A stretch of 64,000 nucleotides of DNA from Rhizomicrobium sp. (GTDB lineage Bacteria > Pseudomonadota > Alphaproteobacteria > Micropepsales > Micropepsaceae), in contig DATKJT010000045.1 of assembly GCA_035543495.1 (NCBI GenBank), positions 11,445 to 75,444 of the forward strand, given 5' to 3'. Shown here one piece after another: positions 11,068-53,100 of this stretch (positions within the stretch are counted from its first letter, which is position 1; every line of letters begins with the position of its first letter). Under the pieces are notes generated by a model. That model saw only the letters and a program-made list of their open reading frames with translations. It did no database searches and was not told the DNA's origin. Made by a program: the position numbers and the translations under genes.

Positions 11068-11204
11068 ACTTACCTCCCCCAACGCGGGGAGGTCGACGGC
11101 GCGCGCAAGCGCGACGGCGGGTGGGGCTCTCCAGCGAGCCTCGCTGAACCCCACCCGGTCGCGTGCCGTTGCACGCGCCCGACCTCCCCAAAGGGGAGGT
11201 AAGT
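11068..11204. repeat. Palindromic repeat element (REP/MITE-like), copy A, full
   Basis: Terminal inverted repeats ACTTACCTCCCC...GGGGAGGTAAGT; fills the whole gap between two convergent stop codons; near reverse complement of 34770-34904. Confidence 0.9.
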
Positions 11205-11205
11205 G

Positions 11206-11916
11206 TTAGACGCGCTTCGCCAAACAAGCCCAATCCCAAGGCCGCTTCTTCGCACGTGAAGGCGTCTCGCGCATCCCTTCCTTGGCCCAGGGATAGTAGA
11301 TCTTCGCAATCCGCTCGACCGCGAACCCTTCATCGCTCATCAAGCGTCTCAATTCCTCGCGCGCGAAGTGCTTCTGATAAGCACCATCGCGTTCCACCAC
11401 GCCATCATCGTGCTCAAGCGGCGTCTTGTTCTTCTTCCGCGCCTGATATTCCAGCTCCACCATCTCCTCGGATTCGATCGACGGCACCACGAGCAGCGCA
11501 TATCCGCCGCGTTTGGTGACGCCCGCGATGCTGCGCCATTGCGCCGCCCGCCGCGCCGTCGAATGCGACGTGATAACATTCATGCACACCGTCAAATCCC
11601 CGCACCGCCCGATCACGCGCGAGGCCCGCTCGATCCCCATCGTCCGCCACGTCACGCCGCGCACGTCCGCACAGCGCTTCTTGGCCCGCGCAATGGTGCG
11701 CGAGGCATATTCCACGCCCTCGATCCGCGAGAACTTTTCGCCGTAACGCAGAATAAACGTCCCGATCCCACACCCCATATCGACCAAGGTTGCGTTCTTC
11801 GGCAACCGCACGCGCGCAACAAGCCGGTGCAACTGATTGTCGGTCTCTTCGCGCGTGATATCGCACACGTTCTTCTCGAACGTGTGAGCGTGCTTGTTCC
11901 ATTCCTTGCGATTCAT
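11206..11916 (-). CDS. Class I SAM-dependent methyltransferase
   Basis: LVDMGCGIG motif I, followed by GVEY. Confidence 0.75.
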   Translation of the reverse strand: MNRKEWNKHAHTFEKNVCDITREETDNQLHRLVARVRLPKNATLVDMGCGIGTFILRYGEKFSRIEGVEYASRTIARAKKRCADVRGVTWRTMGIERASRVIGRCGDLTVCMNVITSHSTARRAAQWRSIAGVTKRGGYALLVVPSIESEEMVELEYQARKKNKTPLEHDDGVVERDGAYQKHFAREELRRLMSDEGFAVERIAKIYYPWAKEGMRETPSRAKKRPWDWACLAKRV

Positions 11917-11950
11917 GGGCCGTGATTAGCCCATGATTCGGCCCACCGCA

Positions 11951-12838
11951 TCAAACCGCGCGCTTGGCCTTGTCTTTCTCGTTAGACCCGCGGATTTCGT
12001 TGCGGATCATTTCCCATTCCGCATCGCCCAGCGTCGAAAGCTGCGCGAAATTCCCGCCCGCCGCCAGATGCAACGCGCCGTCGATGGCAATCGTCTGTCC
12101 GGTGAGATAATCGCATCCATCCGACATCAAAAACACCGCAAGGTTCGCAAGCTCCGGCATCTCGCCGTTGCGCCCCATCGGAATCGTGTTGCGCGACTCC
12201 CCGCGATTGGCAGATTGCGGACTCAACCGGTCCCAAGCGCCTTTCGTCGGAAACGGCCCCGGCGCAATCGCGTTCAAACGAATGCCGTTCGGCCCCCATT
12301 CCGTCGCCAGCGATTTGGTCATGATGTTCAACCCCGCCTTCGACATCGCAGACGGCACGGTGAACGGCCCGCCGTTCCATATCCATGTCGTCAAAATCGA
12401 AATCACGCTCGCCTTGTGGCCGCCCTCGATCCAGCGTTTCCCGCACGCCAGCGTCACGTAAAAGCTGCCGCGAAACACGATGTCGGCAATCGCATTGAAC
12501 CCGCGCGGCGAAAGATCCTTCGTGCGCGAGATGAAATTCCCCGCTGCGTTGTTCACAAGGCCGGTCAGCGCGCCGCCATCGGCCCAAACCTGCGCCACCA
12601 TGTCGTCCACGGCCTCGGCCACGCGGATATCGCAGGCGATCCCCTTCACCATCGATCCGGTCGCGTCCGAAATCCGCTTCGCCGTTTCGTCGAGCACGCT
12701 CGCCCGCCGCCCGCAGATGTAAACGGTCGCGCCAAGCTGCGCATAAGCCTCGCTCATCACCTCGCCGAGCCCGGTTCCGCCCCCGGTCACGAGGATGCGC
12801 TTGCCCTTCAAAATCCCGTCCCTGAACATCAAATCCAC
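11951..12838 (-). CDS. SDR oxidoreductase, 2,4-dienoyl-CoA reductase-like
   Basis: TGGGTGLG, NNAAGNF, SAMSKAG, NAIAPGP; GGAGG upstream of GTG 12838 (alternative ATG 12829). Confidence 0.85.
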   Translation of the reverse strand: MDLMFRDGILKGKRILVTGGGTGLGEVMSEAYAQLGATVYICGRRASVLDETAKRISDATGSMVKGIACDIRVAEAVDDMVAQVWADGGALTGLVNNAAGNFISRTKDLSPRGFNAIADIVFRGSFYVTLACGKRWIEGGHKASVISILTTWIWNGGPFTVPSAMSKAGLNIMTKSLATEWGPNGIRLNAIAPGPFPTKGAWDRLSPQSANRGESRNTIPMGRNGEMPELANLAVFLMSDGCDYLTGQTIAIDGALHLAAGGNFAQLSTLGDAEWEMIRNEIRGSNEKDKAKRAV

Positions 12839-12936
12839 GGCGTTCCTCCAACAATTGTTCCCGCTCATTAGGGCATGGCGGCGCACCTCGCGAAAGAGGT
12901 TTTCGTTTTGTTCCCGTGCCGCTATCGTGCCCGCCC

Positions 12937-15434: not shown

Positions 15435-16163
15435 ATGCGTATTATCGTAAATCGTGAAACGCTTTTGCTGGATGCACTCGGCGCCGCCTTCTGGCCCGCC
15501 GAAGCCACGCTGATCGTTTCCGATCTCCATTTCGAAAAAGGTTCCTCCTTCGCGCGCAAGGGCCAGATGCTGCCGCCCTACGATACGATGACGACGCTCG
15601 CCCACATCGCCGATCTGTTCGCGCGCCACAAACCAAAACGCGTCATCGCGCTGGGCGACTCCTTCCACGACGGCGAAGGCCCCGACCGCCTGCCCGATGC
15701 CGCGCGCGACAGGCTGTCGAATTTCATGTCCCGCGCCGAATGGATCTGGATCGAAGGCAACCACGACCCGGATGTTCCCGCCTGGCTCGGCGGCAAAGCC
15801 ACCTGCGAAATCGCCATCGGCGGCCTCGTCTTCCGTCATGAACCGCGTGCGGATACGGCGGGCGAAATCGCGGGCCATCTTCATCCGTGCGCCACCGTCA
15901 CACGCCGCGGCCATTCCATGCGGCGCCGCTGTTTCGTGAGCGACGGCGTGCGCCTCGTCATGCCCGCTTTCGGTGCCTATACCGGCGGCCTCAACGTGCG
16001 CGATCCCGCGTTTCAATCGCTGTTTGGAACGTCCTATCTCGCTTATGCGCTCGGCGGCCGCCGCGTCTATGCGGTGGCGGGCGATCCTCAGCTGATGCGC
16101 CGGAACAGCGTGGACGACAGCCACCCCAGCATGGTCGCCATCAATACGGTGGAAACGCCGTAA
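15435..16163 (+). CDS. pdeM: Ligase-associated metallophosphoesterase/endonuclease PdeM
   Basis: SDLHFEK, LGDSFHD, GNHD, GHLHP, MPAFGAYTGGLN; directly after Lhr. Confidence 0.9.
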   Translation: MRIIVNRETLLLDALGAAFWPAEATLIVSDLHFEKGSSFARKGQMLPPYDTMTTLAHIADLFARHKPKRVIALGDSFHDGEGPDRLPDAARDRLSNFMSRAEWIWIEGNHDPDVPAWLGGKATCEIAIGGLVFRHEPRADTAGEIAGHLHPCATVTRRGHSMRRRCFVSDGVRLVMPAFGAYTGGLNVRDPAFQSLFGTSYLAYALGGRRVYAVAGDPQLMRRNSVDDSHPSMVAINTVETP

Positions 16164-16915
16164 GCCAGCGGCGATTGGTGCGCGAAATTGAACAGCCGCC
16201 GCTCCAGCCCCGTTTGATCCACATAAAGCGGCGTCGATTGCGCGCTGATCACATTGCCGTCGCGGAACAGATAGACCTGCACGTTATATTGCCCACGCGG
16301 CACATCCGCCGGAACCGGCACGCGTGCGCGAAACAGCGTAGGGCTTAAAAACTCCACACCGCCCGCATTCTCGTTATAAAGCCCGTCGATCAATTTGTGC
16401 CGCACCAGCGCCTCGCGATACGGCTCGGCAATTTCCGGTGTGCGCGCGCTCGTCGAACGCGGCGAAACCTCATCCAACCCCAACTCGTATCGCTTCAGCG
16501 TTTCGACCGGCGCAATCGCCGAAAGCGGCCGCGTGCTCGCGACATAGTAGTAAGACGGGATGCTGTGCATCTCGACGCCGTGGTTGTTCAGCCAGATGCC
16601 CGCCACCCGCTCCTTCTTGCGCACAATCATGTCGCCATCGGGCCCGCGCACCGCGACCACAATGTCCATCGGCCCCGCCGCCGTCATCACATTCATGTTC
16701 TCGATGGCCCCGAACGCCACGATGTCGGTGCCGGTGTAATTCGACGTGATCTGAATGATGTCCTGCGAAAGCCCCGCCACAAGATCGTCGGCTTGTGCCG
16801 AAGCAGTACAAAGCGATAGTGAAAGCGCCAGCAGCAGTGCTCCTTTCTTACCTCCCCCTCGCGGGGAGGTCGGGCGCTTGCATCGGCAAGCGACCGGGTG
16901 GGGGGCGCTTCTCAT
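16088..16915 (-). CDS. TIGR02186 family membrane protein
   Basis: Signal peptide then DLVAGLSQ..I.ITSNYTG, DIVVAVRGP, RKKERVAGIWLN, LFRA, C-terminal TM; ATGA overlap with the TauE gene, its usual partner. Confidence 0.85.
   Translation of the reverse strand: MRSAPHPVACRCKRPTSPRGGGKKGALLLALSLSLCTASAQADDLVAGLSQDIIQITSNYTGTDIVAFGAIENMNVMTAAGPMDIVVAVRGPDGDMIVRKKERVAGIWLNNHGVEMHSIPSYYYVASTRPLSAIAPVETLKRYELGLDEVSPRSTSARTPEIAEPYREALVRHKLIDGLYNENAGGVEFLSPTLFRARVPVPADVPRGQYNVQVYLFRDGNVISAQSTPLYVDQTGLERRLFNFAHQSPLAYGVSTVLMATMLGWLSSTLFRRIS
16847..16906. repeat. Palindromic repeat element, copy B, half element inside a CDS
   Basis: CTTACCTCCCCCTCGCGGGGAGGTCGGGCGCTTGCATCGGCAAGCGACCGGGTGGGGGGC matches the left arm of 34770-34904; 60 bp, in frame. 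Confidence 0.9.
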
Positions 16916-17829
16916 GACGCATCCACCACGCTGAACGGATCGCCCGGCGAAACGAGCAACCCGTAAAGCAATCGCGCGCCCACCGCCAACACCAGCACCG
17001 CCAGCCAGAACCGCAATTGCTCGCCGCGCATCCGCGATGCCGCACGCAATCCGAACTGCGCGCCGATCACGCCGCCGGAAATCAGGATGCCCGCCAGAAC
17101 GATGTCGACAGTGAAATCGCTCACCGAATGCAGAATGGTGCTCGCCGCCGTCACGAACACGATCTGCAACAGCGATGTCCCCATCACGATGTTCGCCGGC
17201 ACCCGCACGAGATAGATCAGCGCCGGTACCAGAAGAAATCCCCCGCCGATACCCATGATGGCCGACAGCACGCCGATGCTGAACCCGATCAGCACCGGCG
17301 GTATCACGCTGATGTAAAGCCGCGAGTCCCGGAACCGCACTTTGAATGGCAATCCATGAATCCAGTTGTGATGCTGTGCGCGTGCGGATGGCGTGGGTTC
17401 CCCTCGCCGCTGCGCTGCCAGCGCTTCCAGCGACTCCCGCAGCATCAACGTCCCGATGGTGCCGAGCAGTATCACGTAGGATGCCGAAACGATCAGCTCC
17501 ATCTGTCCCGCTGCGCGCAACACGCCGAACAGCCACACGCCGGCGCCCGTGCCCACAATGCCGCTCGCCGTCATGATCGCGCCGAGTTTCAGGTCCACCG
17601 CCCGGTTGCGCCATTGGGTGATCGCCCCCGACATCGATGATGCCGTCACGTGGCTTGCGGTGGTGGCCACCGCCACGCCCGATGGAATGCCATAGAACAT
17701 CAGAAGCGGCGTCAGCAGAAATCCGCCGCCCACGCCAAACATGCCCGAAAGAAATCCCACCGCGCCGCCGATGGCGAACAGAAGCAGCCAGTGAACCGAC
17801 ATTTCGGCGATCGGCAGATAGATTTCCAT
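16912..17829 (-). CDS. Sulfite exporter TauE/SafE (TSUP) family protein
   Basis: MEIYLPIAE start, GMFGVGGGFLLTP and GIGGGFLLVP repeats, GTSL. Confidence 0.9.
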   Translation of the reverse strand: MEIYLPIAEMSVHWLLLFAIGGAVGFLSGMFGVGGGFLLTPLLMFYGIPSGVAVATTASHVTASSMSGAITQWRNRAVDLKLGAIMTASGIVGTGAGVWLFGVLRAAGQMELIVSASYVILLGTIGTLMLRESLEALAAQRRGEPTPSARAQHHNWIHGLPFKVRFRDSRLYISVIPPVLIGFSIGVLSAIMGIGGGFLLVPALIYLVRVPANIVMGTSLLQIVFVTAASTILHSVSDFTVDIVLAGILISGGVIGAQFGLRAASRMRGEQLRFWLAVLVLAVGARLLYGLLVSPGDPFSVVDAS

Positions 17830-17939
17830 GAGCCCGGAAAACGAACCAGATTGCTTGGTTCGCAACCATGTCATGGCCGCGCGCGACGGGCCACCCGGTA
17901 TCGCTGAAAATCGCTATGGGCTGTGGGATAGCGGCTTGA

Positions 17940-20900
17940 TTATCCGCGACCCGGCGTCTCCGGCGGCACGTTGGCCGCGCGATTGATCGGTTCGGGCCGG
18001 AACGTATCGGCGGCCTTCTGCGCCGCATCGTGATCTGCGGGCGAAAGCTGCGTGGCCAATGCCGCCACGCGTGCCTTCGATTCATTGTCGCCCTGCGAAG
18101 CGGCGATCGCATACCATTTGTACGCTTCCGTCAGGCTTTGCGGCACGCCGAGCCCACGCTCATAAAGCACTGCAAGATTGAACTGTGAATCTGCGAGTCC
18201 CAGCGTCGCCGCCCGCCCGAACCAGCGCGCAGCCTCCGCATAATTCTTTGCAGAACCCGTACCTTCGGCATATGCCACGGCCAGATTGTGCATCGCCTTG
18301 CGATTGCCCTGACGGGCTGCCGCTTCATACCAATGCAGGGCCTTGGCCGCATCGGTCGCCACGCCGTGACCGCGTTCGTAGAGTGTGCCCAGACGGAACT
18401 GTGCAATCGGCTCGCCCTGATCCGCCGCCCGCTGCAGCCATTTCGCCGCCACGGCTTCGTCAACGGTCACGCCGTCGCCATCGAGATACTTCAAGCCGAG
18501 CAGCAACTGGGCTTTCGAATTGCCCCCATTGGCGAGCACAGTAAGCCGGTCGCCGGTACCGGCAGACGCTTCGGGCTTCTCTGTCTTCGGTGCTGTGGTT
18601 GGCGTCTTCGGCGGAAGCACCATCGCGTTCGGCTTCGGCTCGCTCTGCGTCGGAGCAACCGAAGGCCTCACCGGAAGTGGTTTCGTTGTCGCCGGAACGG
18701 TTTGCGCCGCCGGAGCCGTCTGCAAAATCTTGTGGCTGCCAAGCCGCTGGCTCAGCATCACGCCAAGTCCGATCGCCAGAATGGCGACGAGCGCAATCCC
18801 GCCAATCAACACCACGCGGGAGCGGGGCTGTTCTTCGCGTGCTTCCGGTTCTTCGCGGCGCGCGCCCCAGGTGAAACCGCCCAATGTCGTCGGCACGGGC
18901 TCGTCCGGAATGGCCGTCACCACGGCCGAACGCCGTGCGGCACTTAGGAATTCCTCGTCTTCCCGCGCAGCCGCAAATCCATCCGCTGCAAGCGGGCGTT
19001 CCTCGCGGAAAATATCGTCGTGATCCGTTTCGGGCGGCGTGAACGCATCCTTGTGGCGTTGCCCGAACGCGCGGTTGATCGCGCTGTCCTTGAACGCCGC
19101 CGCAATCGGTTCATCGAACGGCGGCATATCGAATTGCGGCAACTCGCGGCCGGCCTCGGCTTCGTCTTCCGCCGACAATTCAACAGGCGCTTCTTCCGGT
19201 TCTTCCGGCGCTTCGTCCGCCGGTGCGGCCATCTCGACAGGCGCTTCGGGTTCTTCCAGCGGAGCAGGCGAGGGCGCCACCCCTTCGATCACTTCCAGAC
19301 GGCCGGAGGTATTTTCCACCGTGCGGCGCAACCCGGAAATCGATTCCTGCGTCGTGCGATGAACGTCGTCGATCTTGCCCGAAAGCGCGCGTAACTGTTC
19401 TTCGATGCTCGTGCTCGTCGCCAACGAATGGCGCTCGGCCGCTTCCAGCCGCTCCATCAATTCCTGGATGCTGCGCTCCACGCCGTATACACGGCGGTCC
19501 AGCCCGCCATCCTGGCGGCTTTCGACGCGCGCAAATCCTTCTTCCAGCCGCGCCAGCGCCGAAGCCGATTGAACTTCCTGCCCTGCCACGCGCGCGGAAA
19601 GCTGTTCGATGCTGTCTTCCAGCCGATGCAATTGCTGGTTCAGTTCTCCGTCTCCGGACGCATCTTTTTCCTTGGCCAGATGGCTTTCCAGCGCGCTGAT
19701 GCGGGCATGAACTTCGTTTAGCGCATCTTTCTGTGCCGAATGCGTCTCATCCATCGCGCGCTGTAGTTCTTCGACGGCCGTGCGTTCCGCCGAACCGTCG
19801 GAGATCGCCGCGAAGCGCCCCTCTAGTTCGCCGATGCGGGACTGCACCGTGTCGAGCACCTCTTTGTGCGACGAACGCGTCTCATCCATCGCCCGCTGCA
19901 ATTCTTCCACCGCCGCGCGCTCGGCCGACCCGTCGGAAATTGCCGCAAAATGGCTTTCCAATTCGCCGATCCGCGCCTGCACGGTGTCGAGCACGTCTCT
20001 CTGCGACGAGCGCGTTTCTTCGATCGCCTGCTGCAGCTTTTCGAGCGCAATCTTGCGTTGCGCTTCGCCATCGTCGTCGGAGAACCGCTTCTCCAATTCG
20101 GCGATGCGCGCATGAACTTCGTTGCGCGTGTCGTCTTGCGCGCCGCGAATTTGTTCAATCGCTTGCTGCAATTCGTGGCGCCGCGTGCCGTAACGCGTGT
20201 CCAGCGACTTCAAATTCTGCATGAACTCGTCGCGGATCGCCGCGTGGCGTTCTTCCACGCCCGCAAGCAACACGTCGGAGAAATCGGCATCCGGGCCGCT
20301 GCGTTCTTCCAGCCGCCGTATCGCGCGGTCGGTCGCTTCGCTCTTCACGCGCAGCGTCGTCTCCACCGCCTGCATGCGGTCGTCGAGATAGCTCATGCGC
20401 TGCGTCATCAAGGTGGCGGTCCCGGCCGCTTCCTTGTGCGCTTCGCTCATCTTGGTGACGACGGCTTCCATGGCGCTTGCCAGCACCGAAATCTGCGATG
20501 CCGACTGGTTGGCCGTCTGCGCCACCTGGTCAGCCATGCGGGCAAGCCCGTTCTGCAATCCGTGCACCACATCCCGCGTCGTATCGGTGCTCGCGCGCTG
20601 TTCGATGCGGTCCACCCGCTCGCCCAGCGAAATCACATGCGCGCCCAGCGTGTCGAACGCCTGCATCTGTTCGTGCGAGGCGTGGCTGATTTCCTGCGCC
20701 GCCTGGCTCATCATCTGGCTGTTGTCGGTCTGCGAGCGCTCCGCCGAATCCAGCCGGCGCGCCAGCGAGCGCAGATGATCTTCGATCTTTTTGTAGGCGT
20801 TGCTCGTCTCGGATTCCGTGCGGCTCACGTGGGCCAGCATGTCTTGCGATTCTTTGGGGGTCGCTGCCATGACGGGCTCCTCAGCAGGGCGCGTGGCCGG

Positions 20901-34769: not shown

Positions 34770-34904
34770 CTTACCTCCCCCTCGCGGGGAGGTCGGGCGC
34801 GTGCATCGGCACGCGACCGGGTGGGGTTCAGCGAGCCTCGCTTTATCAGCCTCCCACCCGCCGCTGCTGCGCAGCGTCGACCTCCCCGCGTGGGGGGAGG
34901 TAAG
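34770..34904. repeat. Palindromic repeat element, copy C, full
   Basis: CTTACCTCCCC...GGGGAGGTAAG termini; inverted relative to 11068-11204. Confidence 0.9.
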
Positions 34905-34905
34905 T

Positions 34906-35970
34906 GTGACGTCATCCCCGCTCGACAGTGTTCGCGATCTTCTCGAACAAGGCCGCGCCTATGAAGCGGTGCAAATCCTCCGTACACTGATCGAAGGCAA
35001 CCGCGGCGGTCTCCTGGCGAGGCTGTTGCTCGCGACTGCGCATCTCGCAAGCGGCGACATAGCGGCCGCCCTAGAAACCGCGCGCGACACGGCCTCGCTT
35101 TATCCCGGCGTTGCCCAAGCCGCGCTTTCGCTTGGTGAAGCCTTGCTCGCCGCCGAAGCCCTTCCATCGGCCATCGCCGAATTCCAGCGCGCGCTGCGCA
35201 TCGACCCCGCACTCAGTGAAGCACGCCTCAAACTCGCCGAAGCCTGGCTCGCAGCGGGCGAGGCCGGCAAAGCCATCGAAGCTCTCGAAGCCGTCGAAGA
35301 AAGCCCGACACGAGCCGCCCTCATCGAACGGGCCGGTGCCATGCACGAACAGCAGCGTTCCGATGCAGGCTATGTGCGCCATCTCTTCGATCAGTTCTCA
35401 ACGGACTACGACCAGCGCATGCGCGGCCAGCTTGCCTATGCCGCTCCCGAAATCCTGCGCAGCCTCGCCGAGATAATCGGCCTGCAATTCTCCCGGCACG
35501 ACATCCTCGATCTCGGCTGCGGCACCGGTCTTGGCGGTGTGGCCTTTAAAGACATCGCCAGTCGTCTTGATGGCATCGACCTCAGCCCCGCCATGATCGC
35601 GAAGGCCAAAGAACGAGGCATCTACGACACGCTGATAGTCGGCGACATCGAAACGCTCGCCCAAACCGGCCATCGTTATGATCTGCTGATCGCCGCCGAC
35701 ACGCTCGTTTATCTCGGTGACCTCGCCCCGGTCTTCAAAGCCGCCGCCCACGTGCTCAAACCGGGCGGAACTTTTCTCTTCACCGTCGAGAAAGCCGAAG
35801 ATGGTTTCGAGCTTGGCCCCAAGCGCCGCTGGCGTCACGCCGAAACCTATCTGCGCGATCTTGCTCAACAATCCGGTTTCGAGATCGCCGGTCTCCTCGC
35901 CGCCAGCCCCCGCACCGAAGCCGGAACGCCGGTGGAAGGTTTCGCCGTCGCGTTACAGAAAGTTTCTTAG
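34906..35970 (+). CDS. TPR-containing class I SAM methyltransferase
   Basis: N-terminal TPR helices, then YVRHLFDQF...YD, LDLGCGTG, GIDLSPAM, AADTLVYLGDL; GTG start inferred. Confidence 0.85.
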   Translation: MTSSPLDSVRDLLEQGRAYEAVQILRTLIEGNRGGLLARLLLATAHLASGDIAAALETARDTASLYPGVAQAALSLGEALLAAEALPSAIAEFQRALRIDPALSEARLKLAEAWLAAGEAGKAIEALEAVEESPTRAALIERAGAMHEQQRSDAGYVRHLFDQFSTDYDQRMRGQLAYAAPEILRSLAEIIGLQFSRHDILDLGCGTGLGGVAFKDIASRLDGIDLSPAMIAKAKERGIYDTLIVGDIETLAQTGHRYDLLIAADTLVYLGDLAPVFKAAAHVLKPGGTFLFTVEKAEDGFELGPKRRWRHAETYLRDLAQQSGFEIAGLLAASPRTEAGTPVEGFAVALQKVS

Positions 35971-38319: not shown

Positions 38320-38397
38320 AAAGCCTTTCTTCCGCCGCATTGGATGTGTTTTGATCCCCCGAGGGTGGGACACATCCAATCAGGGGAGAGGAATTTC

Positions 38398-38766
38398 ATG
38401 TCGCTCAAACTCGCTCTGGCGCTGGCTCTGGCCGCGGGCATCGCAACGCCTGCGCTCGCGGACTCGTGCTCGGAACCCATTCCGCCGGCCGCCGTCGATG
38501 GCTCCACCGCCACCAAGGAGCAGATCCAGCAGGCCCGCGACGACACCGTGAACTTCATCAAGGCGTCGGACGATTATCAGTCCTGCCTGTTCGCCGACCT
38601 GAAGGCGCAGAAACTCCAGGCCGTGAAGGACAAGAAGGTGTTTCCGTCCTCCATCGAAGACGCCGTGAACGACAAGGTGCAGGACAATCAGAAGGAGAAG
38701 GAAAAAGTCGGCGCCGAATACAACGCCGCCGCCGTCACCTTCAAAAACAAACACCCCGGCAGCTGA
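38398..38766 (+). CDS. Small secreted helical protein with a Cys pair
   Basis: Signal peptide ending ALA, CSEP...DG.TAT.EQ...Y.SCL; strong SD upstream. Confidence 0.7.
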   Translation: MSLKLALALALAAGIATPALADSCSEPIPPAAVDGSTATKEQIQQARDDTVNFIKASDDYQSCLFADLKAQKLQAVKDKKVFPSSIEDAVNDKVQDNQKEKEKVGAEYNAAAVTFKNKHPGS

Positions 38767-38773: not shown

Positions 38774-38935
38774 ACTCACCTCCCCCTTGTGGGGAGGTCG
38801 ATAAAATTCGGAGCGCAGCGAAGAATTTTTCGGGTGGGGGACGGCGCCCGTCGCTCGCAGCGGCCCCCCACCCGGATCGCGTTCATACGCTGTCGCTATG
38901 AACCTCTCCGACCTCCCCACAAGGGGGAGGTGAGT
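38774..38935. repeat. Palindromic repeat element, copy D, full
   Basis: ACTCACCTCCCCCTTGTGGGGAGGTCG ... CGACCTCCCCACAAGGGGGAGGTGAGT perfect 27-bp terminal inverted repeat. Confidence 0.92.
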
Positions 38936-38979
38936 AGAACTTTCGCCGGTCTTCATCCGAATCACCTATCATCGCGGCC

Positions 38980-39567
38980 ATGACCGGACAAGCCATCGCC
39001 CAGAACCGCGCCCGCCGCCGCGCCCAGGAGCAAGGCGCCACGCGCGCCGGTATTCTGGATGCCGCCCGCAGGGTCGGCGCGCGAGACGGCGCCCGCCAGC
39101 TCTCGCTTCGCGCCGTCGCCGCCGAAGCCGGTTTCGCACCCGCAGCCCTCTACGGCTATTTCCGCAACAAGGACGAACTGCTGCTCGCGCTCGCTGCCGA
39201 CGATCTTTCGCTATTGGCCCGCGCGATGAAAGACGCCGCCACCAACGCGCCGCCGTCCGAGAAACTCGCGAAAGCCGCGCTGGCCGCTGTGAAGCTCCTC
39301 GAACAAACCGAAACGCTTGCCACCGCGCCCTCCGCGCTCGCAAGCGGCACAGCGCCCGATGCCGAACGCATCTTCAACGGCCGACTGATCGCCGCGCTGC
39401 GATCGCTGTCCGATGCCGCCGACATAAAAATGGAAAGCCGCAACGCCCAACTCGACACGGTGCTGTTGGCCGCAACCTTGACCGGCCTTGCGGTAATGGC
39501 CCGCTCGGGAAGACTGACCGCGCTGGGCTTCACCGCGGAAGAAATTCTGGAACGGTTGAAGACATAA
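38980..39567 (+). CDS. TetR/AcrR family regulator
   Basis: ILDAARRV...SLRAVAAEAGFAPAALYGYFRNKDELL. Confidence 0.9.
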   Translation: MTGQAIAQNRARRRAQEQGATRAGILDAARRVGARDGARQLSLRAVAAEAGFAPAALYGYFRNKDELLLALAADDLSLLARAMKDAATNAPPSEKLAKAALAAVKLLEQTETLATAPSALASGTAPDAERIFNGRLIAALRSLSDAADIKMESRNAQLDTVLLAATLTGLAVMARSGRLTALGFTAEEILERLKT

Positions 39568-39568
39568 T

Positions 39569-39711
39569 CTCACCTCCCCCTTGTGGGGAGGTCGAAAAAT
39601 GCGAAGCATTTTTCGGGCGGGGGGCCGAAGACAATGACAGACCCCGTCCCCCACCCGAAAAATCTTCGCTGCGCTCAGATTTTGTCGACCTCCCCACAAG
39701 GGGGAGGTAAG
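39569..39711. repeat. Palindromic repeat element, copy E, full
   Basis: CTCACCTCCCCCTTGTGGGGAGGTCG ... CGACCTCCCCACAAGGGGGAGGTAAG; fills the gap between the tetR and ribF stops. Confidence 0.92.
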
Positions 39712-39713: not shown

Positions 39714-40658
39714 TTAAATCCCCGCCAAAACCTTCCGCGCAGCATCGCTGTCCTTCGCGATCTGCACCTTCAGCGCTTCCAGCCCGTCGAGTTTCGCTTC
39801 CGGCCGAATGTAGCGGATGAACTCCACCGCCATATGCTTCCCGTAAAGATCGCCGTCGAAATCGAACAGATATGTCTCCAGCAGCGGCGTCGCGATCTCA
39901 TACATCGGCCGCACGCCGAAATTCGCCACGCCGCCGTAGCGCCCGACAGGCTTGTCATCCTCGATGATCGTCGCCCGCACCGCATAAACGCCGTAAGCCG
40001 GCCACAGAAAATCGTCGATCCGCATGTTCGCCGTGGGAAACCCGATCGTGCGGCCGCGCTTGTCGCCGTGATCGACGCGCGCCTCCACGCTCCAGAAATG
40101 CCCGAGCAGTTCCGCCGCTTCCTCCGGCCGTCCCTGTTTCAACGCCTCGCGGATGCGCGTCGACGAAATCTTCTCGTGTCCTTCCGCCGTGACCGGTTCG
40201 AACACCGTCACGCCAAACCCCTCCTGCTCGCCCATATAGGAAAGCGAGGTCACATTTCCCGTGCGCGCCTTGCCGAACTGGAAATCCTCTCCCACCACAA
40301 TCGCGCCGACGCCCAGCCCGTCCACCAGAACGTCCTGCACGAATTCATGCGCGTGTTTCTTCGCCATCTCGGCGTCGAACGACAGCGCGAACATCACGTC
40401 CGCGCCCAGTTCTGCGATCAGCCGCGCCTTGCGGCGAAAGGGCGTCAGGCGAAATGATTCCGTCGGTGGCCGGAAGAATTCCTGCGGATGCGGCTCGAAT
40501 GCGATCACGCCGAACGGGCTGCCGCGTTCTTCGGCCATGCGCTGCGCTTCGCCGATCAGTGCCTGATGGCCGCGATGCACGCCGTCGAAATTGCCAAGCG
40601 CCACCACCGCGCCCTTATAGGCGTCGGGAATATCGTTATAGTGACGGAAGATGCGCAT
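39714..40658 (-). CDS. ribF: Bifunctional riboflavin kinase/FAD synthetase
   Basis: GNFDGVHRGH, ISSTRIR, GRTIGFPTAN, GVRP, LETYLFDF. Confidence 0.96.
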   Translation of the reverse strand: MRIFRHYNDIPDAYKGAVVALGNFDGVHRGHQALIGEAQRMAEERGSPFGVIAFEPHPQEFFRPPTESFRLTPFRRKARLIAELGADVMFALSFDAEMAKKHAHEFVQDVLVDGLGVGAIVVGEDFQFGKARTGNVTSLSYMGEQEGFGVTVFEPVTAEGHEKISSTRIREALKQGRPEEAAELLGHFWSVEARVDHGDKRGRTIGFPTANMRIDDFLWPAYGVYAVRATIIEDDKPVGRYGGVANFGVRPMYEIATPLLETYLFDFDGDLYGKHMAVEFIRYIRPEAKLDGLEALKVQIAKDSDAARKVLAGI

Positions 40659-49009: not shown

Positions 49010-49084
49010 CGCAAGCCTTGCACACGCGAGGCGTTCGCAATTTTTGTGGTGCTTTCGCAACAGCCAAAGGCGATGGAATTTCGG

Positions 49085-49098: not shown

Positions 49099-49154
49099 CC
49101 GCCGCCACACACCGCTCGCCTACGCAAGGAACACGAAACTCTGAGGGTGTTCAC

Positions 49155-49790
49155 GTGCGTTCTCTCATATCGCTTTTCTCTGCCGCGTTGGTGTCCACCG
49201 CCGCTCTTTCACCCGCCATTGCGGACGACGACTCTGGCGTCGCCGGTCATTTCCAGGTGCGCGTGCGCGCTGTCGCCGTCGAACCCGAACCCAGCGCGAA
49301 GATCACGCTGTCGGGCAACGATGTTGGCGGAACCACAACCATCACCGACAGCGTCGTGCCCGAAATCGACGGCACCTATTTCATCACAGACAATATCGGC
49401 GTCGAACTAATCGCCGCCACCACCAAACACACCGCCAGCAACTCGAACACCGGCCCTATCGCCAGTGTCTGGCTCCTGCCGCCAACGCTCACGGCGCAAT
49501 ACCACTTCATGCCGGATAGCTGGATCCGCCCCTATGTCGGCGCGGGCATCAACTACACGATCTTCTACGACACGCGCAGCGCCATCCCCGATCTCAAATT
49601 CGGCGATCGTTTCGGCTGGGCGTTGCAAGCGGGTCTCGATGCGCCCATCCCCAACACGCCTTATTTCGTGAACTTCGACATCAAGAAGCTCTTCCTGAGC
49701 ACCAATGTGAAGGGTCTGGCCGGTGCGCTGAAAGCCAATGTCGATATTGATCCGTGGCTCGTAGGGTTGGGCGTCGGTATCCGTTTCTAA
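49155..49790 (+). CDS. ompW: OmpW family outer membrane protein
   Basis: Signal peptide, VPEIDGTYF, LLPPTLTAQYHF, PYVGAGINY, IDPWLVGLGVGIRF. Confidence 0.93.
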   Translation: MRSLISLFSAALVSTAALSPAIADDDSGVAGHFQVRVRAVAVEPEPSAKITLSGNDVGGTTTITDSVVPEIDGTYFITDNIGVELIAATTKHTASNSNTGPIASVWLLPPTLTAQYHFMPDSWIRPYVGAGINYTIFYDTRSAIPDLKFGDRFGWALQAGLDAPIPNTPYFVNFDIKKLFLSTNVKGLAGALKANVDIDPWLVGLGVGIRF

Positions 49791-49791
49791 G

Positions 49792-49927
49792 ATAGCGAGG
49801 GTCTCTCCCGCTCTCGCTGTCCAACCGAGCACTACGGTGCGGGACGTGGGCCGGTCTTAAGTGTTCTTTGCAAGACCGGCTGGCCGGAGAGCCGTAACTC
49901 TCCGGCTCCCGCGTTCCGCATTTTTTT
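49792..49927 (+). ncRNA. Structured 3'-UTR RNA / sRNA candidate ending in U7
   Basis: Hairpin with UCUCUCCC loop, then a 13-14 bp stem enclosing two hairpins, then TTTTTTT; G-U pairs favour the + strand. Confidence 0.55.
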
Positions 49928-49933
49928 GAAAGC

Positions 49934-51478
49934 CTAAAGCACCACTTCGATCAGCCGCGGCCCGCGCTGCTTCATCGCGTCGGCGAACTGCGCGGAAAAT
50001 TCTTCCGCCGTGGTGGCGCGTGTCGCTTCCACGCCCATCCCGCGCGCAAGGTCCACCCAGCCGAGATCGGGATTGCCGAGGTCGAACATCGAAAGCGCAC
50101 GCGGCCCCGCATTCTCCGCACCCACGCGCATGAGCTCGATCTTCAGGATCGCATAAGACCGGTTCGAGAAGATCACCGTGGTGACATCCAGCTTCTCGCG
50201 CGCCTGCGTCCACAGCGCCTGCACGGTGTACATCGCGCCGCCATCGCCATGCAGGCAAACCACCTTGCGGTCGGGACAGGCAACCGCGGCTCCCGTCGCC
50301 ACCGGCAACCCCTGTCCGATGGACCCGCCGGTCAATGCCAGATGATCGTGCGCGGGAGAATTCGCCGTCAGCACGCCGGTGCTGAATCCGCTCGTCGCCG
50401 ATTCATCGGAGATGATCACATTCTCCGGCAGCAAATTCGCAATCGCCAGTGCTGCGGCCTGCGCATCCAACCGGCCTTTCGGCAAATCGGGCCGCCGCAA
50501 TTCCGCGCGGCCCGCAACGTCTTTCGTTGCACGCACGGCTTCTGCCAGCGCGTCCAATGCCGCCACGCCGTCTTCATGCGGATGTGCAAGCGTGTGGATC
50601 GCGCATCCTTCCGGCGTGCACCAGCTCGGCTTTCCGGGATAGGCGAAAAACGAAACCGGCGGTTTCGATCCCACCAAAACCAGATGTTCCAGATCTTTCA
50701 GGAAATCGACAATCTGTTCGGCGAAATAGGGAATCCGCTCAACGCCCACAACGCCCGCCCCGCGTCTGATACGCGGCGCAAACGTATCGCACAGCAATCG
50801 CGCGCCGGTCTTCGCCGCAATCCGTCCCGCCGCCTCAAGCCCGCGCGCCTCCAAACCTTCGCCGCGAATAAGGATCGCACTCTTTTTCCCACCCAGCAGC
50901 GCCTGCGCCACCGCATCGATCCTCGGCGCTTCAACGCTCGCGGGTTGCAGCGGCGCCAGCGGCCCGACCGGACCTTCGGCCTCGTCCCACGCCGCATTGG
51001 CCGGCAGAACCAGTGTCGCGATCTGTCCCGGCGGCTCCATCGCCGCCCGCACCGCGCGCGCGGCATCCGCTGCAACGGTGCGCGAACTGGGGCTCGAATA
51101 AAGCCATCCCGAAACAGGCCGCGCGAACCCCATGAGGTCGGACGCAAGCGGCGCATCGTATTGCGCATGATAGGTCGCGTGATCGCCCACAATGTTGACG
51201 ATCGGCGTGGCCGCCCTGCGCGCGTTGTGCAAATTCGCAAGTCCGTTTGCGAGCCCCGGCCCCAGATGCAGAAGCGTCGCCGCCGGCTTCTTCGCCATGC
51301 GGCCATATCCGTCGGCGGCACCCGTCACCACGCCTTCGAACAATGCCAGAACCGGACGCATCGCGGGCGCGCGGTCGAGAGCCGCCACGAAATGCATTTC
51401 CGACGTGCCGGGGTTGGCAAAGCAAACCTCCACCCCGCAATTGAGCAACGTCCGAACCAGACTTTCCGCGCCGTTCAT
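49934..51478 (-). CDS. ThDP-dependent enzyme, acetolactate synthase large subunit-like
   Basis: NPGTSEMH, LFEGVVTGAADGY, HLGPGLAN, GDGGAMY...N ThDP motif. Confidence 0.9.
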   Translation of the reverse strand: MNGAESLVRTLLNCGVEVCFANPGTSEMHFVAALDRAPAMRPVLALFEGVVTGAADGYGRMAKKPAATLLHLGPGLANGLANLHNARRAATPIVNIVGDHATYHAQYDAPLASDLMGFARPVSGWLYSSPSSRTVAADAARAVRAAMEPPGQIATLVLPANAAWDEAEGPVGPLAPLQPASVEAPRIDAVAQALLGGKKSAILIRGEGLEARGLEAAGRIAAKTGARLLCDTFAPRIRRGAGVVGVERIPYFAEQIVDFLKDLEHLVLVGSKPPVSFFAYPGKPSWCTPEGCAIHTLAHPHEDGVAALDALAEAVRATKDVAGRAELRRPDLPKGRLDAQAAALAIANLLPENVIISDESATSGFSTGVLTANSPAHDHLALTGGSIGQGLPVATGAAVACPDRKVVCLHGDGGAMYTVQALWTQAREKLDVTTVIFSNRSYAILKIELMRVGAENAGPRALSMFDLGNPDLGWVDLARGMGVEATRATTAEEFSAQFADAMKQRGPRLIEVVL

Positions 51479-51544
51479 CCCGTGTTTCCCCGATATCGCT
51501 GACCGCAGCTTTTCACAGATCGGCGCCGGAAAGAATGCCGGGGT

Positions 51545-52198
51545 TCACTCTTTCGGCAGCAGCATCAGCGGATTGGGCGTGGGCTCGGCCACCTTGAACA
51601 GCGTGTTCACGTCGCGATGCTCGAACAGCTCCTTGCGCCCGCGCACCAAAAGCATGGTCTTCAGCACATAGCTCCAGCTTCCATCCGCATTGAAGGTGAC
51701 TTCGATGCGATACGAATCCGTGCGAAACGCCTGTTCCAGAAAATCGGTGGAACAGATGCCATATCCCGTCGTTCCGCGCGTCGCCGTCAACGCCAATGTC
51801 ATGTCGTCGGGCTTCGCAAAACCGGAGGCGATAGCAATCTGCCCGCGCGGAATGGCAAGCGTCTGCATCACCAGCCCCGTTGCAGGCTCCCAAAGCCAAT
51901 AACCCACCTGATCGTGAAACGTCGGCGCTTCGCCCGGCGACAGGATGCGCGTGTGATAGCGCAAGCCATAGAAAACCTGCGGCCCGTTCAATTGATAATC
52001 GGTCGGCTGCAATTCGATCCGCTCGGTGAATTCCTTGCGCTGCGGACCCTCCGCTTTCGGGTTCAGGTCCACACCCATCTTGCCTTCCCAAATTCCCGCC
52101 AAACGGCGCAGCGGACCAAGGTTGGCCAAGGTATCGGGATCGACCTCTTCCGGTTCGGTGAAAATATCGTCGGGAATATTCACGTGACTGTACCCCAT
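51545..52198 (-). CDS. DUF1794 / nitrobindin-like beta-barrel protein
   Basis: IFTEP...LGPL..LAGIWEG..G.D, GPQVFYGLRYH, FHDQVGYWLWEP, F.H.D.NTL; start ATG 52198 or GTG 52183. Confidence 0.85.
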   Translation of the reverse strand: MGYSHVNIPDDIFTEPEEVDPDTLANLGPLRRLAGIWEGKMGVDLNPKAEGPQRKEFTERIELQPTDYQLNGPQVFYGLRYHTRILSPGEAPTFHDQVGYWLWEPATGLVMQTLAIPRGQIAIASGFAKPDDMTLALTATRGTTGYGICSTDFLEQAFRTDSYRIEVTFNADGSWSYVLKTMLLVRGRKELFEHRDVNTLFKVAEPTPNPLMLLPKE

Positions 52199-52268
52199 CT
52201 GAAAATGACAACGCCCATCGAGCAGCTTGAATATCCGCCGCTCGAAAATGAAGGCTGTTTTTTGAAAA

Positions 52269-52345
52269 TGGTCGGAGAGAGAGGATTCGAACCTCCGGCC
52301 CCCACGTCCCGAACGTGGTGCTCTACCAGGCTGAGCTACTCTCCG
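52269..52345 (-). tRNA. tRNA-Pro (CGG)
   Basis: CGGAGAGTAGCTCAGCCTGGTAGAGCACCACGTTCGGGACGTGGGGGCCGGAGGTTCGAATCCTCTCTCTCCGACCA; cloverleaf, anticodon CGG, encoded CCA. Confidence 0.97.
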
Positions 52346-52364
52346 GTCTTCAGATCGGGGCGCC

Positions 52365-52393
52365 CTTATAGCTATGGGGTGGTGCCCCCGCAA
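52365..52393 (-). promoter_or_regulatory. Sigma70 promoter of tRNA-Pro
   Basis: TTGCGG-N17-TATAAG followed by GC-rich discriminator GGCGCCCC. Confidence 0.7.
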
Positions 52394-52585
52394 CGTAGGT
52401 CCAATGCGGCCAAAAGTTTGGTCCGGCAACGGGTTGGCTTGGCGCCACATCTCGCCTGCCTGTGGAAAGGCGCGTTTGGAGCGTTCGATAGCCCTAAGCC
52501 TTTGGGCCCATTATAAGAAATAAATCCTTTACTTTGCGCCGGCGAAGACTTATGATCTCCAGCATTTTGGAGTTAGAGCCTATAT

Positions 52586-52897
52586 ATGACAAGCAATACC
52601 GCCGTGTCCCCCGAACTCAACCGGGTGGCCGCCCTGCTGGAAGACGAGCTGTACGAATGCCATGCCGCCGTCATGGCCGCCTTCCGCTTTGCCGAAACGC
52701 ATCCCGATCCCAAGGCGCAGCTTGAAGCGATGAAAGCCGGCAGCCGCATGATGCAGGCAAGCGCCAACGCGGCATGCGCGCTCAGGCGCCTGCGCAGTCC
52801 CGGCACCCATCACACCGTCACCGTGCAGTCCGCGCCCGCAGCGGGGGAGGGGGGAGATACCACCCCCGAAAAATCGAAAACGAATAACCACGAATGA
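52586..52897 (+). CDS. Hypothetical 103-aa helical protein
   Basis: AT-rich promoter-like region and GGAG upstream; ATGA coupling to the next ORF. Confidence 0.55.
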   Translation: MTSNTAVSPELNRVAALLEDELYECHAAVMAAFRFAETHPDPKAQLEAMKAGSRMMQASANAACALRRLRSPGTHHTVTVQSAPAAGEGGDTTPEKSKTNNHE

Positions 52898-53100
52898 CCG
52901 CCCGCAACCGCGGCGCCCAACCCGGCAACCGCAACGCCCTAAAAACCGGCCGTCACACGAAAGAGATGCGCGCCTTGCGCCAGCAAGCGCGCTTGAGAAT
53001 CTATGCGCTGAAAGCCGCGATAGCACAGGCCAGAATCGTACCTCCCCTTCGCGGGGAGGTCGACAATTCAGAGCGAAGCGAAGAATTGGCGGATGGGGAC
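52894..53100 (+). CDS. Small basic protein with GAQPGNRNALKTG motif; 3' end invaded by repeat (frame stays open to 53715)
   Basis: MTARNRGAQPGNRNALKTGRHTKEMR...; the frame enters repeat F at about codon 49; end coordinate is nominal. Confidence 0.5.
53039..53099. repeat. Palindromic repeat element, copy F, half element
   Basis: TACCTCCCCTTCGCGGGGAGGTCGACAATTCAGAGCGAAGCGAAGAATTGGCGGATGGGG matches the arm type of copies D/E. Confidence 0.85.

What the first reader, a model, noticed from the sequence alone, without database searches (positions are those of the whole stretch)
11068..53099. Six-copy family of modular palindromic repeats (REP/MITE-like) with no mobilising enzyme in the window
Seen: four full copies (11068-11204, 34770-34904, 38774-38935, 39569-39711) and two half copies (16847-16906, 53039-53099), about one per 10 kb. 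Each end is (CT)YACCTCCCC-N3-6-GGGGAGGTCG, followed inward by a hairpin, a GGGTGGGG/CCCCACCC clamp and a variable core. Two copies fill convergent intergenic gaps within 2 nt of both stop codons, and three more lie about 7-22 nt after a stop. Established: alphaproteobacteria carry similar-sized families (Caulobacter CIR, rhizobial RIME, Brucella BRU-RS) and REPs are spread by HUH (RAYT) nucleases. Inference: a still-spreading non-autonomous element that targets gene 3' ends and serves as a bidirectional terminator or mRNA stabiliser.
Basis: partly seen in the sequence, partly recalled or inferred. Interest (0 to 1): 0.7.

Follow-up and report, generated by a model that had tools for sequence, protein, structure and literature searches.

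The report
Gene-less copies of DUF559 nuclease cassette
The six repeats belong to a family of about 120 hairpin-rich elements that hug gene ends, and they look like gene-less copies of a small cassette that in related bacteria carries a DUF559 nuclease gene, which points to an enzyme partner for a long-unexplained class of bacterial repeats.

Summary
The window has 10 terminal hairpins, ACCTCCCC-N3-6-GGGGAGGT (0 expected by chance). They make four full and two half elements. The whole 3.47-Mb genome has 183 exact hairpins, forming 65 full elements of 118-175 bp plus half units.

Each half unit has a C-block/G-block hairpin, then a variable inner hairpin, then a G/T block that mirrors the stem's G strand. 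This is the block logic of the published BoxC/PIT/TMECO intrastrand-triplex repeats, with a different stem and a hairpin in place of loop 2.

- There is no target duplication, no RAYT gene, and no IS with matching ends.
- Copies sit right after stop codons (median 6 nt).
- Occupancy of orthologous sites differs between species.

In relatives the same arms enclose a roughly 110-aa DUF559 (Vsr-like) nuclease gene, and nuclease clades track arm types. This genome keeps one nuclease gene of the cognate clade, outside the window. Its ortholog in a near relative lies in intact arms of this family.

Nuclease action on the arms is inferred, not shown. The closest copies are at most 96% alike, so "still spreading" is not supported. 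Earlier notes of this scan record the DUF559-repeat pairing on other genomes. I found it in no paper.

The parts
11068..11204 (.). Full type-a element between convergent stop codons (TAA ends at 11067; TTA starts at 11206)
   Evidence: In relative G021 the orthologous site is empty and the two stops overlap in CTAG. G243 has a type-c element there.
16847..16906 (+). Half unit: terminal hairpin, inner hairpin GGGCGCTTGCATCGGCAAGCGACC, then G-box GGGTGGGG
34770..34904 (.). Full type-a element. Its right-end GGAGGT lies 4 nt before GTG 34906, the likely start of the downstream gene.
   Evidence: The element is absent in G021, where the two genes abut.
38774..38935 (.). Full type-a element (CTTGT/ACAAG loops), 7 nt after the stop of ORF 38344..38766
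   Evidence: G021 has a decayed half of about 75 nt at this site.
39569..39711 (.). Full type-a element between convergent stops (TAA ends at 39567; TTA starts at 39714)
   Evidence: G021 has only a solo hairpin here, G243 a half unit, G220 and G232 nothing, and G013 an element of another type.
39572..39592 (+). Example anatomy: left terminal hairpin (C block ACCTCCCC, loop CTTGT, G block GGGGAGGT)
39595..39614 (+). Example anatomy: left inner hairpin AAAAATGCGAAGCATTTTTC
   Evidence: 129 distinct inner hairpins; nearly all fold.
39615..39624 (+). Example anatomy: G-box GGGCGGGGGG, the third block that mirrors the stem's G strand
39648..39656 (+). Example anatomy: C-box CCCCCACCC, complement of the G-box across the 23-nt core
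39688..39708 (+). Example anatomy: right terminal hairpin. Its loop ACAAG is the reverse complement of the left loop.
53039..53099 (+). Half unit: terminal hairpin, inner hairpin, then degenerate G-box GGATGGGG

Best explanation
The repeats are gene-less members of a family of modular palindromic cassettes.

**Shown**
- One half unit has three parts: a C-block/G-block hairpin (WCTYACCTCCCC-loop-GGGGAGGTCG), a variable self-paired inner hairpin, and a G/T block (GGGTGGGG) that mirrors the stem's G strand.
- Two inverted half units around a 10-35 nt core make the 130-140 bp element.
- In related genomes the same two arms enclose a DUF559 (Vsr-like PD-(D/E)XK) nuclease gene of about 110 aa, in place of the short core. 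This gives a cassette of about 450 bp.
- Nuclease clades and arm types diversify together.
- This genome keeps one nuclease gene of the cognate clade (contig C64:3189-3500, outside the window). Its ortholog in relative G220 lies in intact arms of this family.
- Elements lack target duplications, sit within a few nt of stop codons, and differ in presence between species at orthologous sites.

**Inferred**
- The nuclease recognises the structured arms (hairpin or intrastrand triplex, probably in single-stranded or extruded DNA) and nicks there.
- Repair or replication restart then copies arm-bounded DNA into other sites.
- The short elements are then either deletion derivatives moved in trans or unoccupied partner sites.

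The half unit is a variant of the published BoxC/PIT/TMECO triplex-motif repeats, for which no enzyme partner is known.
For: **Family size and anatomy:**

**Mirror rule:** the third block is a perfect mirror of the stem's G strand in 30% of 228 arms. The controls give 8% (direct copy), 8.5% (regions of other arms) and 3% (shuffled block).

**DUF559 inside the arms:**
- G013, Pfam PF04480, E = 2.8e-38.
- About 28 of 31 loci in the genus, with further loci.
- Most of 29 loci from other families of the class, and loci from other classes of the phylum.

**Co-diversification:** the tree of 71 nucleases needs 12 changes of arm label, against 40.9 in shuffles (0 of 200 shuffles as low). The type-a clade has SH-aLRT support 92 and includes the gene at C64. 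Within that clade, sub-clades track the loop types CTTGT and CAACGC.

**The resident nuclease:**
- The C64 protein keeps the conserved D...ExD...H residues.
- Its nearest solved structure is 3HRL.
- Its G220 ortholog lies in intact type-a arms.

**Mobility and targeting:**
- Sites in the window are empty, solo, half or occupied by another type in relatives.
- No TSD.
- Proximity to stop codons.

**Other enzymes:** no RAYT gene.

**Published class:** TMECO pattern and 'never found ... transposases or integrases' (PMC4666352). E. coli ycjD (DUF559) lies beside a TMECO copy.
Against: - No cleavage, binding or transposition data exist for any DUF559 protein on these arms.
- The type-b family in this genome (45 hairpins, 18 full elements) has no b-clade nuclease gene. 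Its copies are nevertheless as similar to each other as type-a copies are (median 90.3%, maximum 95.4%).
- G008 has 19 type-a hairpins and no DUF559 gene at all.
- The resident C64 gene has lost its own left arm and sits on a long branch.
- No two copies are more than 96% alike, so there is no sign of current activity.
- Shared descent of gene and arms as one unit would also give the tree pattern, without any recognition.
- The long type-e cassette at C20 is inherited vertically and decays or inverts in place.
- A PD-(D/E)XK nuclease has no known strand-joining activity.
Confidence: 0.45

Rival explanations
1. The short repeats are the primary elements. They are spread or kept by some other route, such as replication slippage at palindromes, an unknown enzyme, or host selection. 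The DUF559 gene is a homing-type passenger that invades their cores, using the two arms as homology for repair copying.
For: - The ORF always lies between the G-box and the C-box.
- Repeat families persist without a cognate nuclease.
- DUF559 genes occur in tandem arrays separated by arms (G065:C36).
- The Vsr-like fold is used by homing endonucleases (PMC3239194, listed).
Against: It leaves the spread of the repeats to more than 100 non-homologous sites unexplained. It still needs the nuclease to recognise the repeat, so it differs from the best explanation mainly in what moves.
Confidence: 0.25
2. The elements are kept by the host as RNA- or DNA-level punctuation at gene ends. They would act as 3' mRNA stabilisers, barriers between convergent genes, or suppliers of a ribosome-binding site. 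The nuclease link would be incidental.
For: - They lie extremely close to stop codons.
- Inner hairpins keep their pairing through many compensatory changes.
- The right-end GGAGGT sits 4 nt before the likely GTG start at 34906.
Against: - There is no U-tract after the hairpins.
- Occupancy of orthologous sites is not conserved.
- Different repeat types replace one another at one site.
- Holder et al. 2015 report that PIT/BoxC elements showed no promoter or terminator activity (PMC4666352).
- Purine-motif triplexes do not form in RNA, according to the same paper.
Confidence: 0.12
3. A classical MITE: an internally deleted insertion sequence moved in trans by a DDE transposase.
For: The elements have terminal inverted repeats of about 30 nt, a size of 120-175 bp, many copies and an intergenic location.
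Against: - There is no target-site duplication at any offset or length.
- No pair of ends encloses a transposase. The only left-right pair at IS-like spacing encloses a monooxygenase gene.
- The inner modules of the two arms are not complementary to each other.
Confidence: 0.05
4. A REP/REPIN family mobilised by a RAYT (HUH tyrosine transposase).
For: The elements are inverted doublets of palindromic units, have no TSD, and lie at gene 3' ends.
Against: - No Y1_Tnp match in this genome, which is 100% complete by marker genes.
- In the genus, repeat-rich genomes G020, G021 and G023 also lack it.
- There is no GTAG-type head.
Confidence: 0.02

Closest known systems
BoxC / PIT element / TMECO intrastrand-triplex motif (Holder et al. 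2015, PMC4666352, which cites the earlier BoxC and Hoyne/Maher PIT work)
   Same: - Three consecutive blocks: C-rich, G-rich, then a G-rich mirror block (class II purine motif).
- Loop 1 of 3-6 nt.
- Multi-copy and intergenic.
- Often paired in inverted configuration.
- Variable between close relatives.
- No transposase nearby.
- The genome also holds 4 literal TMECO matches.
   Different: - The stem is ACCTCCCC/GGGGAGGT, not CCCTCNCCC/GGGNGAGGG.
- Loop 2 is a self-paired hairpin of 18-33 nt instead of 3 nt, so the published finder (loops of 1-6 nt) would miss it.
- The copies hug stop codons here, whereas no positional trend was reported for E. coli.
- The DUF559 link is not in that paper.
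REP/REPIN elements with their RAYT gene
   Same: - A palindromic unit occurs as singlets and as inverted doublets.
- There is no TSD, and copies lie at gene ends.
- An enzyme gene is bracketed by its own repeat type.
- Enzyme lineages match repeat types.
- Gene-less copies greatly outnumber the gene.
   Different: - The enzyme is a Vsr-like PD-(D/E)XK nuclease, not an HUH tyrosine transposase.
- The gene is often multi-copy per genome (up to 15).
- No activity has been shown.
Vsr-like (EDxHD) homing endonucleases such as I-Bth0305I (PMC3239194)
   Same: A small nuclease of the Vsr-like fold carried by a selfish cassette.
   Different: - There is no intron or intein.
- The cassette is bounded by structured inverted arms.
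- It has many gene-less derivatives at unrelated sites.
Rfam RF01762 whalefall-1 RNA motif
   Same: The 56-position consensus has the same layout: CUCUCC/GGAGAG hairpin, second hairpin, then an unpaired GGGUGAGG tail. Half units align over the whole model.
   Different: Scores are 20-24 bits against a gathering score of 37. The arms of ten DUF559 loci gave no match at the gathering score.
E. coli YcjD (DUF559) locus
   Same: A DUF559 gene has a TMECO copy (CCCTCGCCCC-TCT-GGGGAGAGGG-TTA-GGGTGAGGGG) about 170 nt downstream. A hairpin-like CCCTCTCCC...GAGGGGG stretch overlaps its last codons.
   Different: It has no clean pair of inverted arms, and it is a single copy.

Membership tests
BoxC/PIT/TMECO intrastrand-triplex motif | Three consecutive blocks C-G-G, the third a mirror of the second (class II purine motif) | tested here: met
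   169 type-a half units have the full block order, against 0 in reversed sequence. The mirror match exceeds three controls.
BoxC/PIT/TMECO intrastrand-triplex motif | Literal pattern CCCTCNCCC N3-6 GGGNGAGGG N3 GGGNGAGGG | tested here: not met
   The six copies have the stem ACCTCCCC/GGGGAGGT and an 18-33 nt second loop. Only 4 other sites in the genome match the literal pattern.
BoxC/PIT/TMECO intrastrand-triplex motif | [quoted passage not shown] | not testable with these tools
   This needs CD/NMR or chemical probing.
REP/REPIN-RAYT | A Y1/HUH RAYT gene in the genome, flanked by the repeats | tested here: not met
   PF01797 gave no match in G000, which is 100% complete by marker genes. Controls rang in 6 of 14 genomes.
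REP/REPIN-RAYT | Inverted doublets of a palindromic unit without target duplication | tested here: met
   65 doublets; no TSD.
MITE (DDE-derived) | Direct target-site duplication flanking the terminal inverted repeats | tested here: not met
   For lengths 2-8 at all offsets 0-9, matches never exceeded shuffled pairings.
MITE (DDE-derived) | A parent IS with the same ends and a transposase | tested here: inconclusive
   No left-right pair at IS spacing encloses a transposase. A full transposase census of the genome was not made.
Rfam whalefall-1 (RF01762) | Score at or above the gathering threshold (37 bits) | tested here: not met
   20.1-23.6 bits.
DUF559-in-arms cassette (undescribed in print; noted earlier in this scan) | The same arms enclose a PF04480 gene in some copies | tested here: met
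   G013, G011, G019, G020, G021, G023, G041, G043, G050, G051, G066 and G220. No copy in the window or in G000 has both intact arms round the gene.
DUF559-in-arms cassette (undescribed in print; noted earlier in this scan) | The nuclease lineage matches the arm type | tested here: met
   12 label changes against 40.9 in shuffles. Loop sub-types also match. Shared descent could produce this too.
DUF559-in-arms cassette (undescribed in print; noted earlier in this scan) | The nuclease binds or cuts its own arms | not testable with these tools
   This needs biochemistry.
Caulobacter CIR / rhizobial RIME / Brucella Bru-RS | Match to the published consensus sequences | not tested
The pattern was absent from 16 genomes of other families of the class.

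The most novel reading that the evidence does not exclude
DUF559 nucleases are the missing enzyme partners of the BoxC/PIT/TMECO-type triplex repeats across Proteobacteria. Each nuclease lineage would recognise the folded C-G-G arm of its own repeat type and, by nicking it, copy or maintain arm-bounded DNA. That would make a REP/RAYT-like system built on a Vsr-like nuclease and on a DNA structure rather than a sequence.
Probability: 0.3. Interest if true: 0.85.

Novelty: new variant of a known kind. Interest (0 to 1): 0.7.

Why it matters
BoxC/PIT/TMECO repeats have been known since the 1990s and occur in hundreds of proteobacterial genomes. They still have no function and no enzyme partner. 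DUF559 is a large family of nucleases with unknown roles.

This genome offers a clean case. It has a very large gene-less family, one resident nuclease of the matching clade, and a near relative in which that same gene sits in intact arms. That makes the pairing directly testable with one protein and a few oligonucleotides.

The tight placement within a few nucleotides of stop codons is also a concrete targeting rule to explain. So are the repeated, independent hits by different repeat types at the same gene end.

Tried and rejected
- **RAYT/IS200:** PF01797 is absent from G000. In the genus its presence does not follow the repeats.
- **Autonomous copy in G000:** I looked for left-right end pairs at IS-like spacing. 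The only candidate (contig C38, 2.2 kb) encloses a flavin monooxygenase gene, not a transposase.
- **TSD search:** negative. A TA/CTAG target suggested by the single clean empty site is not borne out across 65 elements.
- **Literature search by sequence words:** useless. 'DUF559' gave 25 papers (22 listed); none of the listed titles or abstracts concerns repeats. 'Vsr-like' plus 'palindromic' plus 'mobile' gave only the I-Bth0305I paper.
- **Rfam:** only a tRNA at the gathering threshold, and sub-threshold whalefall-1 matches.
- **Strain-level relatives for precise empty sites:**
  - No genome in the genus is closer than about 85% nucleotide identity.
  - The look-up of encoding contigs found nothing.
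- **Orientation of long cassettes relative to the upstream gene:** no bias, with 49 upstream same-strand stops against 46 convergent stops.
- **Youth of copies with and without a cognate nuclease:** type a and type b show no difference.
- **Concatenated-flank query against G021:** built but never submitted.
Full report
**1. Observation**

- The terminal hairpin ACCTCCCC-N3-8-GGGGAGGT occurs 10 times in the window and never in 100 shuffles.
- GGGGAGGT occurs 20 times against 1.2 expected.
- Four sites hold two inverted hairpins with inner hairpins and a GGGTGGGG/CCCCACCC pair. Two sites hold one half unit.
- At 11068 and 39569 the element fills the gap between convergent stop codons, leaving 0 and 1 nt.

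**2. The family in the whole genome**

The window is contig C45:11445-75444 of a draft genome of 3.47 Mb, 73 contigs and 60.8% G+C.
- The genome has 183 exact terminal hairpins. Allowing one mismatch per stem gives 235, against 3 in reversed sequence.
- There are 65 full elements of 118-175 bp (mode 139) and 53 single hairpins. Several singles lie at contig ends.
- 169 half units have the complete order: hairpin, inner segment, G-box.
- The conserved end is W-C-T-Y-ACCTCCCC.
- The loops at the two ends are reverse complements (CTTGT and ACAAG, or CAACGC and GCGTTG). The ends are therefore true inverted repeats, not a duplicated palindromic target.
- No direct target duplication of 2-8 nt exists at any offset.
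- The inner segment has 129 distinct sequences in 198 half units. Nearly all fold into a hairpin (mean -9.4 kcal/mol against -4.9 for shuffles), with many double compensatory changes.
- The left and right inner hairpins of one element are not complementary to each other. The conserved features are therefore local hairpins, not one long palindrome.
- The closest pairs of full copies are 81-96% alike, and none are identical.
- Three more families with the same layout coexist in the genome: type b (ACCCTCCC/GGGAGGGT, 45 hairpins), type c (CCTCTCCCC/GGGGAGAGG, 20) and an e-like type (16).

**3. Position**

I used my own crude gene calls (2983 genes, 88% coding).
- Of the 65 full elements, 27 lie between convergent genes, 31 in co-directional gaps and 6 in divergent gaps.
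- The side of an element that faces a stop codon lies a median of 6 nt from it, and 64 of 85 such sides are within 10 nt. The side that faces a start lies a median of 109 nt away.
- In 23 co-directional gaps with at least 60 nt to spare, 11 elements lie within 12 nt of the upstream stop and 1 within 12 nt of the downstream start. Uniform placement would give 0.83 (Poisson P = 1.4e-9).
- Stop codons next to elements are TGA 29, TAG 26 and TAA 22. Genome-wide usage is 53%, 20% and 27%. There is no fixed spacing to the stop.
- Convergent genes without elements are themselves almost abutting in this genome, with a median spacer of 10 nt.

**4. Mobility**

The pattern occurs in 13 of 24 sampled genomes of the genus (4-30 hits each) and in none of 16 genomes from other families of the class. 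The nearest relatives are only about 85% identical in DNA.

State of the orthologous sites in relatives:

| Site in G000 | State in relatives |
|---|---|
| 39569 (full element) | G021 has a solo hairpin, TCTCACCTCCCCACAAGGGGGAGGTAAGT, with both outer flanks; G243 a half unit; G220 and G232 nothing; G139 and G176 pieces of other types; G013 a full element of another type |
| 11068 (full element) | G021 is empty, with the two stops overlapping in CTAG; G243 has a type-c element; G220 a decayed copy; G232 a small hairpin |
| 34770 (full element) | Absent in G021, where the two genes abut |

In G000 the downstream gene at site 34770 now most likely starts at GTG 34906, 4 nt after the element's GGAGGT. 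That start is an inference.

Elements are therefore gained and lost, and different types hit the same gene end independently. Because no copies are identical, 'still spreading' is not supported.

**5. The enzyme question**

No RAYT gene is present. The decisive lead came from a relative. In G013 the same arms lie 437 bp apart and enclose an ORF that matches Pfam DUF559 (PF04480, E = 2.8e-38).
- DUF559 genes occur in 50 of 61 sampled genomes of the genus, with up to 15 per genome and some in tandem.
- In about 28 of 31 loci inspected, and in most of 40 more, the ORF of about 110 aa is bracketed in the same way. Upstream lie the terminal hairpin, an optional inner hairpin and the G-box, followed directly by the start codon. 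Downstream lie the C-box, an inner hairpin and the terminal hairpin.
- The ORF's tail often reads through the right arm.
- At least seven arm types exist.
- The same architecture surrounds DUF559 genes in most of 29 loci from 29 other families of the class, and in other classes of the phylum.

A maximum-likelihood tree of 71 nuclease domains sorts by arm type.
- It needs 12 label changes, against 40.9 in shuffles (0 of 200 shuffles as low).
- The type-a clade (SH-aLRT 92) holds 13 genes in ACCTCCCC arms, one gene without arms, and G000's own gene at C64:3189-3500.
- Within the clade, the sub-clade that contains the C64 gene goes with CTTGT loops, the dominant loop type in G000. The other sub-clade goes with CAACGC loops.

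G000 has only two DUF559 genes.
- One lies at C20:64327-64653 in type-e arms.
- The other is the C64 gene. It keeps the conserved acidic and histidine residues but has a degenerate left arm. About 70 nt downstream of it lies a full short type-a element.
- At the orthologous locus, G220 has the gene inside intact type-a arms. G243 resembles G000. G021 has a type-c cassette instead.
- The nearest solved structure is 3HRL, an uncharacterised 'endonuclease-like protein' (E = 1e-20).

The C20 cassette is orthologous in G000, G243 and G021. In G243 the ORF is inverted between the arms. In G021 it is decayed, with an antisense remnant. G139 keeps only a solo hairpin, and G220 and G232 carry a HigBA-like gene pair at that spot. 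Long cassettes can therefore be old residents that invert and decay in place.

**6. What the arms are**

After I had seen that the G-box resembles the stem, earlier notes of this scan pointed me to the BoxC/PIT/TMECO literature. I then tested that lead.
- Holder et al. 2015 (PMC4666352) define TMECO as CCCTCNCCC N3-6 GGGNGAGGG N3 GGGNGAGGG.
  - It is a class II purine-motif intrastrand triplex, found 3610 times in 262 proteobacterial genomes.
  - Copies often lie in inverted pairs.
  - Earlier work found no promoter or terminator activity.
  - The authors 'never found ... remnants of transposases or integrases'.
- My type c is this motif.
- In type a the third block (GGGTGGGG) mirrors the stem's G strand (GGGGAGG) with A changed to T. 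Types b, d, e and f obey the same rule.
- Over 228 arms the mirror match is perfect in 30%. Controls give 8% for a direct copy, 8.5% for regions of other arms and 3% for shuffled blocks.
- Type a differs from TMECO in its stem and in having an 18-33 nt hairpin as loop 2.
- Rfam's whalefall-1 motif has the same layout, but the half units score below its threshold.
- In E. coli K-12, ycjD (DUF559) has a TMECO copy about 170 nt downstream, between it and fabI.
- I found no paper that links DUF559 with repeats. One paper lists DUF559 as enriched among predicted inversion targets, in a table row only (PMC9881135). The flanking inverted arms and the inversion seen fit that listing.

**7. Reading**

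What is shown:
- The repeats are a variant of the triplex-motif class.
- They are the gene-less form of a cassette that elsewhere carries a DUF559 nuclease.
- Nuclease lineages and arm types go together.
- A cognate-clade gene is resident in this genome.
- Elements turn over at gene ends without target duplication.

What is inferred: the nuclease recognises and nicks the folded arm, and repair then copies arm-bounded DNA.

Evidence against a strict dependence on the nuclease:
- Type b has no cognate nuclease in G000, yet its copies look as young as type-a copies.
- G008 has the repeats and no DUF559 gene at all.
- There is no evidence of recent activity.
- The tree pattern could reflect shared descent alone.

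The main rival is that the nuclease gene is a homing passenger of pre-existing repeats.

**8. Limits**
- Gene calls are my own and crude.
- Relatives are distant, so only one base-level empty site was obtained.
- The transposase census of G000 is incomplete.

The same DUF559-repeat pairing has been noted many times by this scan on other genomes. My scores rest on what I tested here.

Noticed in passing
window 34896-34908: The right end of the element supplies GGAGGT 4 nt before GTG 34906. That GTG is in frame with ORF 34801..35970 and lies where homology to the G021 protein begins. In G021 the two genes abut, with no element between them.
   Followed up: partly
window 16847-16906: The half unit lies inside a long open frame on the minus strand (16088..18112). 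Another note of this scan reads it as translated within a signal peptide. My crude gene calls split the region differently (16912..17874).
   Followed up: no
window 38774-39711: Two full elements with near-identical ends bracket a single small gene (38980..39567). In G021 the gene is present with only a decayed half unit on one side and a solo hairpin on the other.
   Followed up: partly
window 52272-52345 (-): A tRNA gene. It is the only Rfam match in the window at the gathering threshold.
   Followed up: no
G000 contig C38:21-2234: A 2.6-kb contig carries a flavin (Baeyer-Villiger-type) monooxygenase gene. A type-a left half lies on one side. A type-c full element plus a type-a right half lie on the other.
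   Followed up: partly
G000 genome-wide: Three further repeat families have the same C-G-(hairpin)-G layout: type b (45 hairpins), type c = TMECO-like (20) and e-like (16). Only the e-like type has a DUF559 gene in matching arms in this genome (C20:64254-64705).
   Followed up: partly
L189 (G220:C2:705958-706709) and L186 (G232:C3:25627-26093): At the site where G000 carries the type-e DUF559 cassette, these relatives carry a HigB/HigA-like toxin-antitoxin pair instead. The same gene end is therefore a landing place for unrelated mobile genes.
   Followed up: no
L183 (G243:C172:1-500): The DUF559 ORF is inverted between its arms, relative to the orthologous G000 cassette.
   Followed up: partly
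L198 3300-3480 (E. coli K-12, downstream of ycjD): A degenerate duplicate of the last ~50 nt of ycjD (GGAGACGGTGCTGGAGAATATTC...) lies between the gene and the TMECO copy.
   Followed up: no
inner hairpins genome-wide (e.g. window 39600-39608): Many inner hairpins are capped by GCGAAGC or GCGCAAGC-type mini-loops. From memory, d(GCGAAGC) is an unusually stable DNA mini-hairpin, which would fit folding as single-stranded DNA.
   Followed up: no
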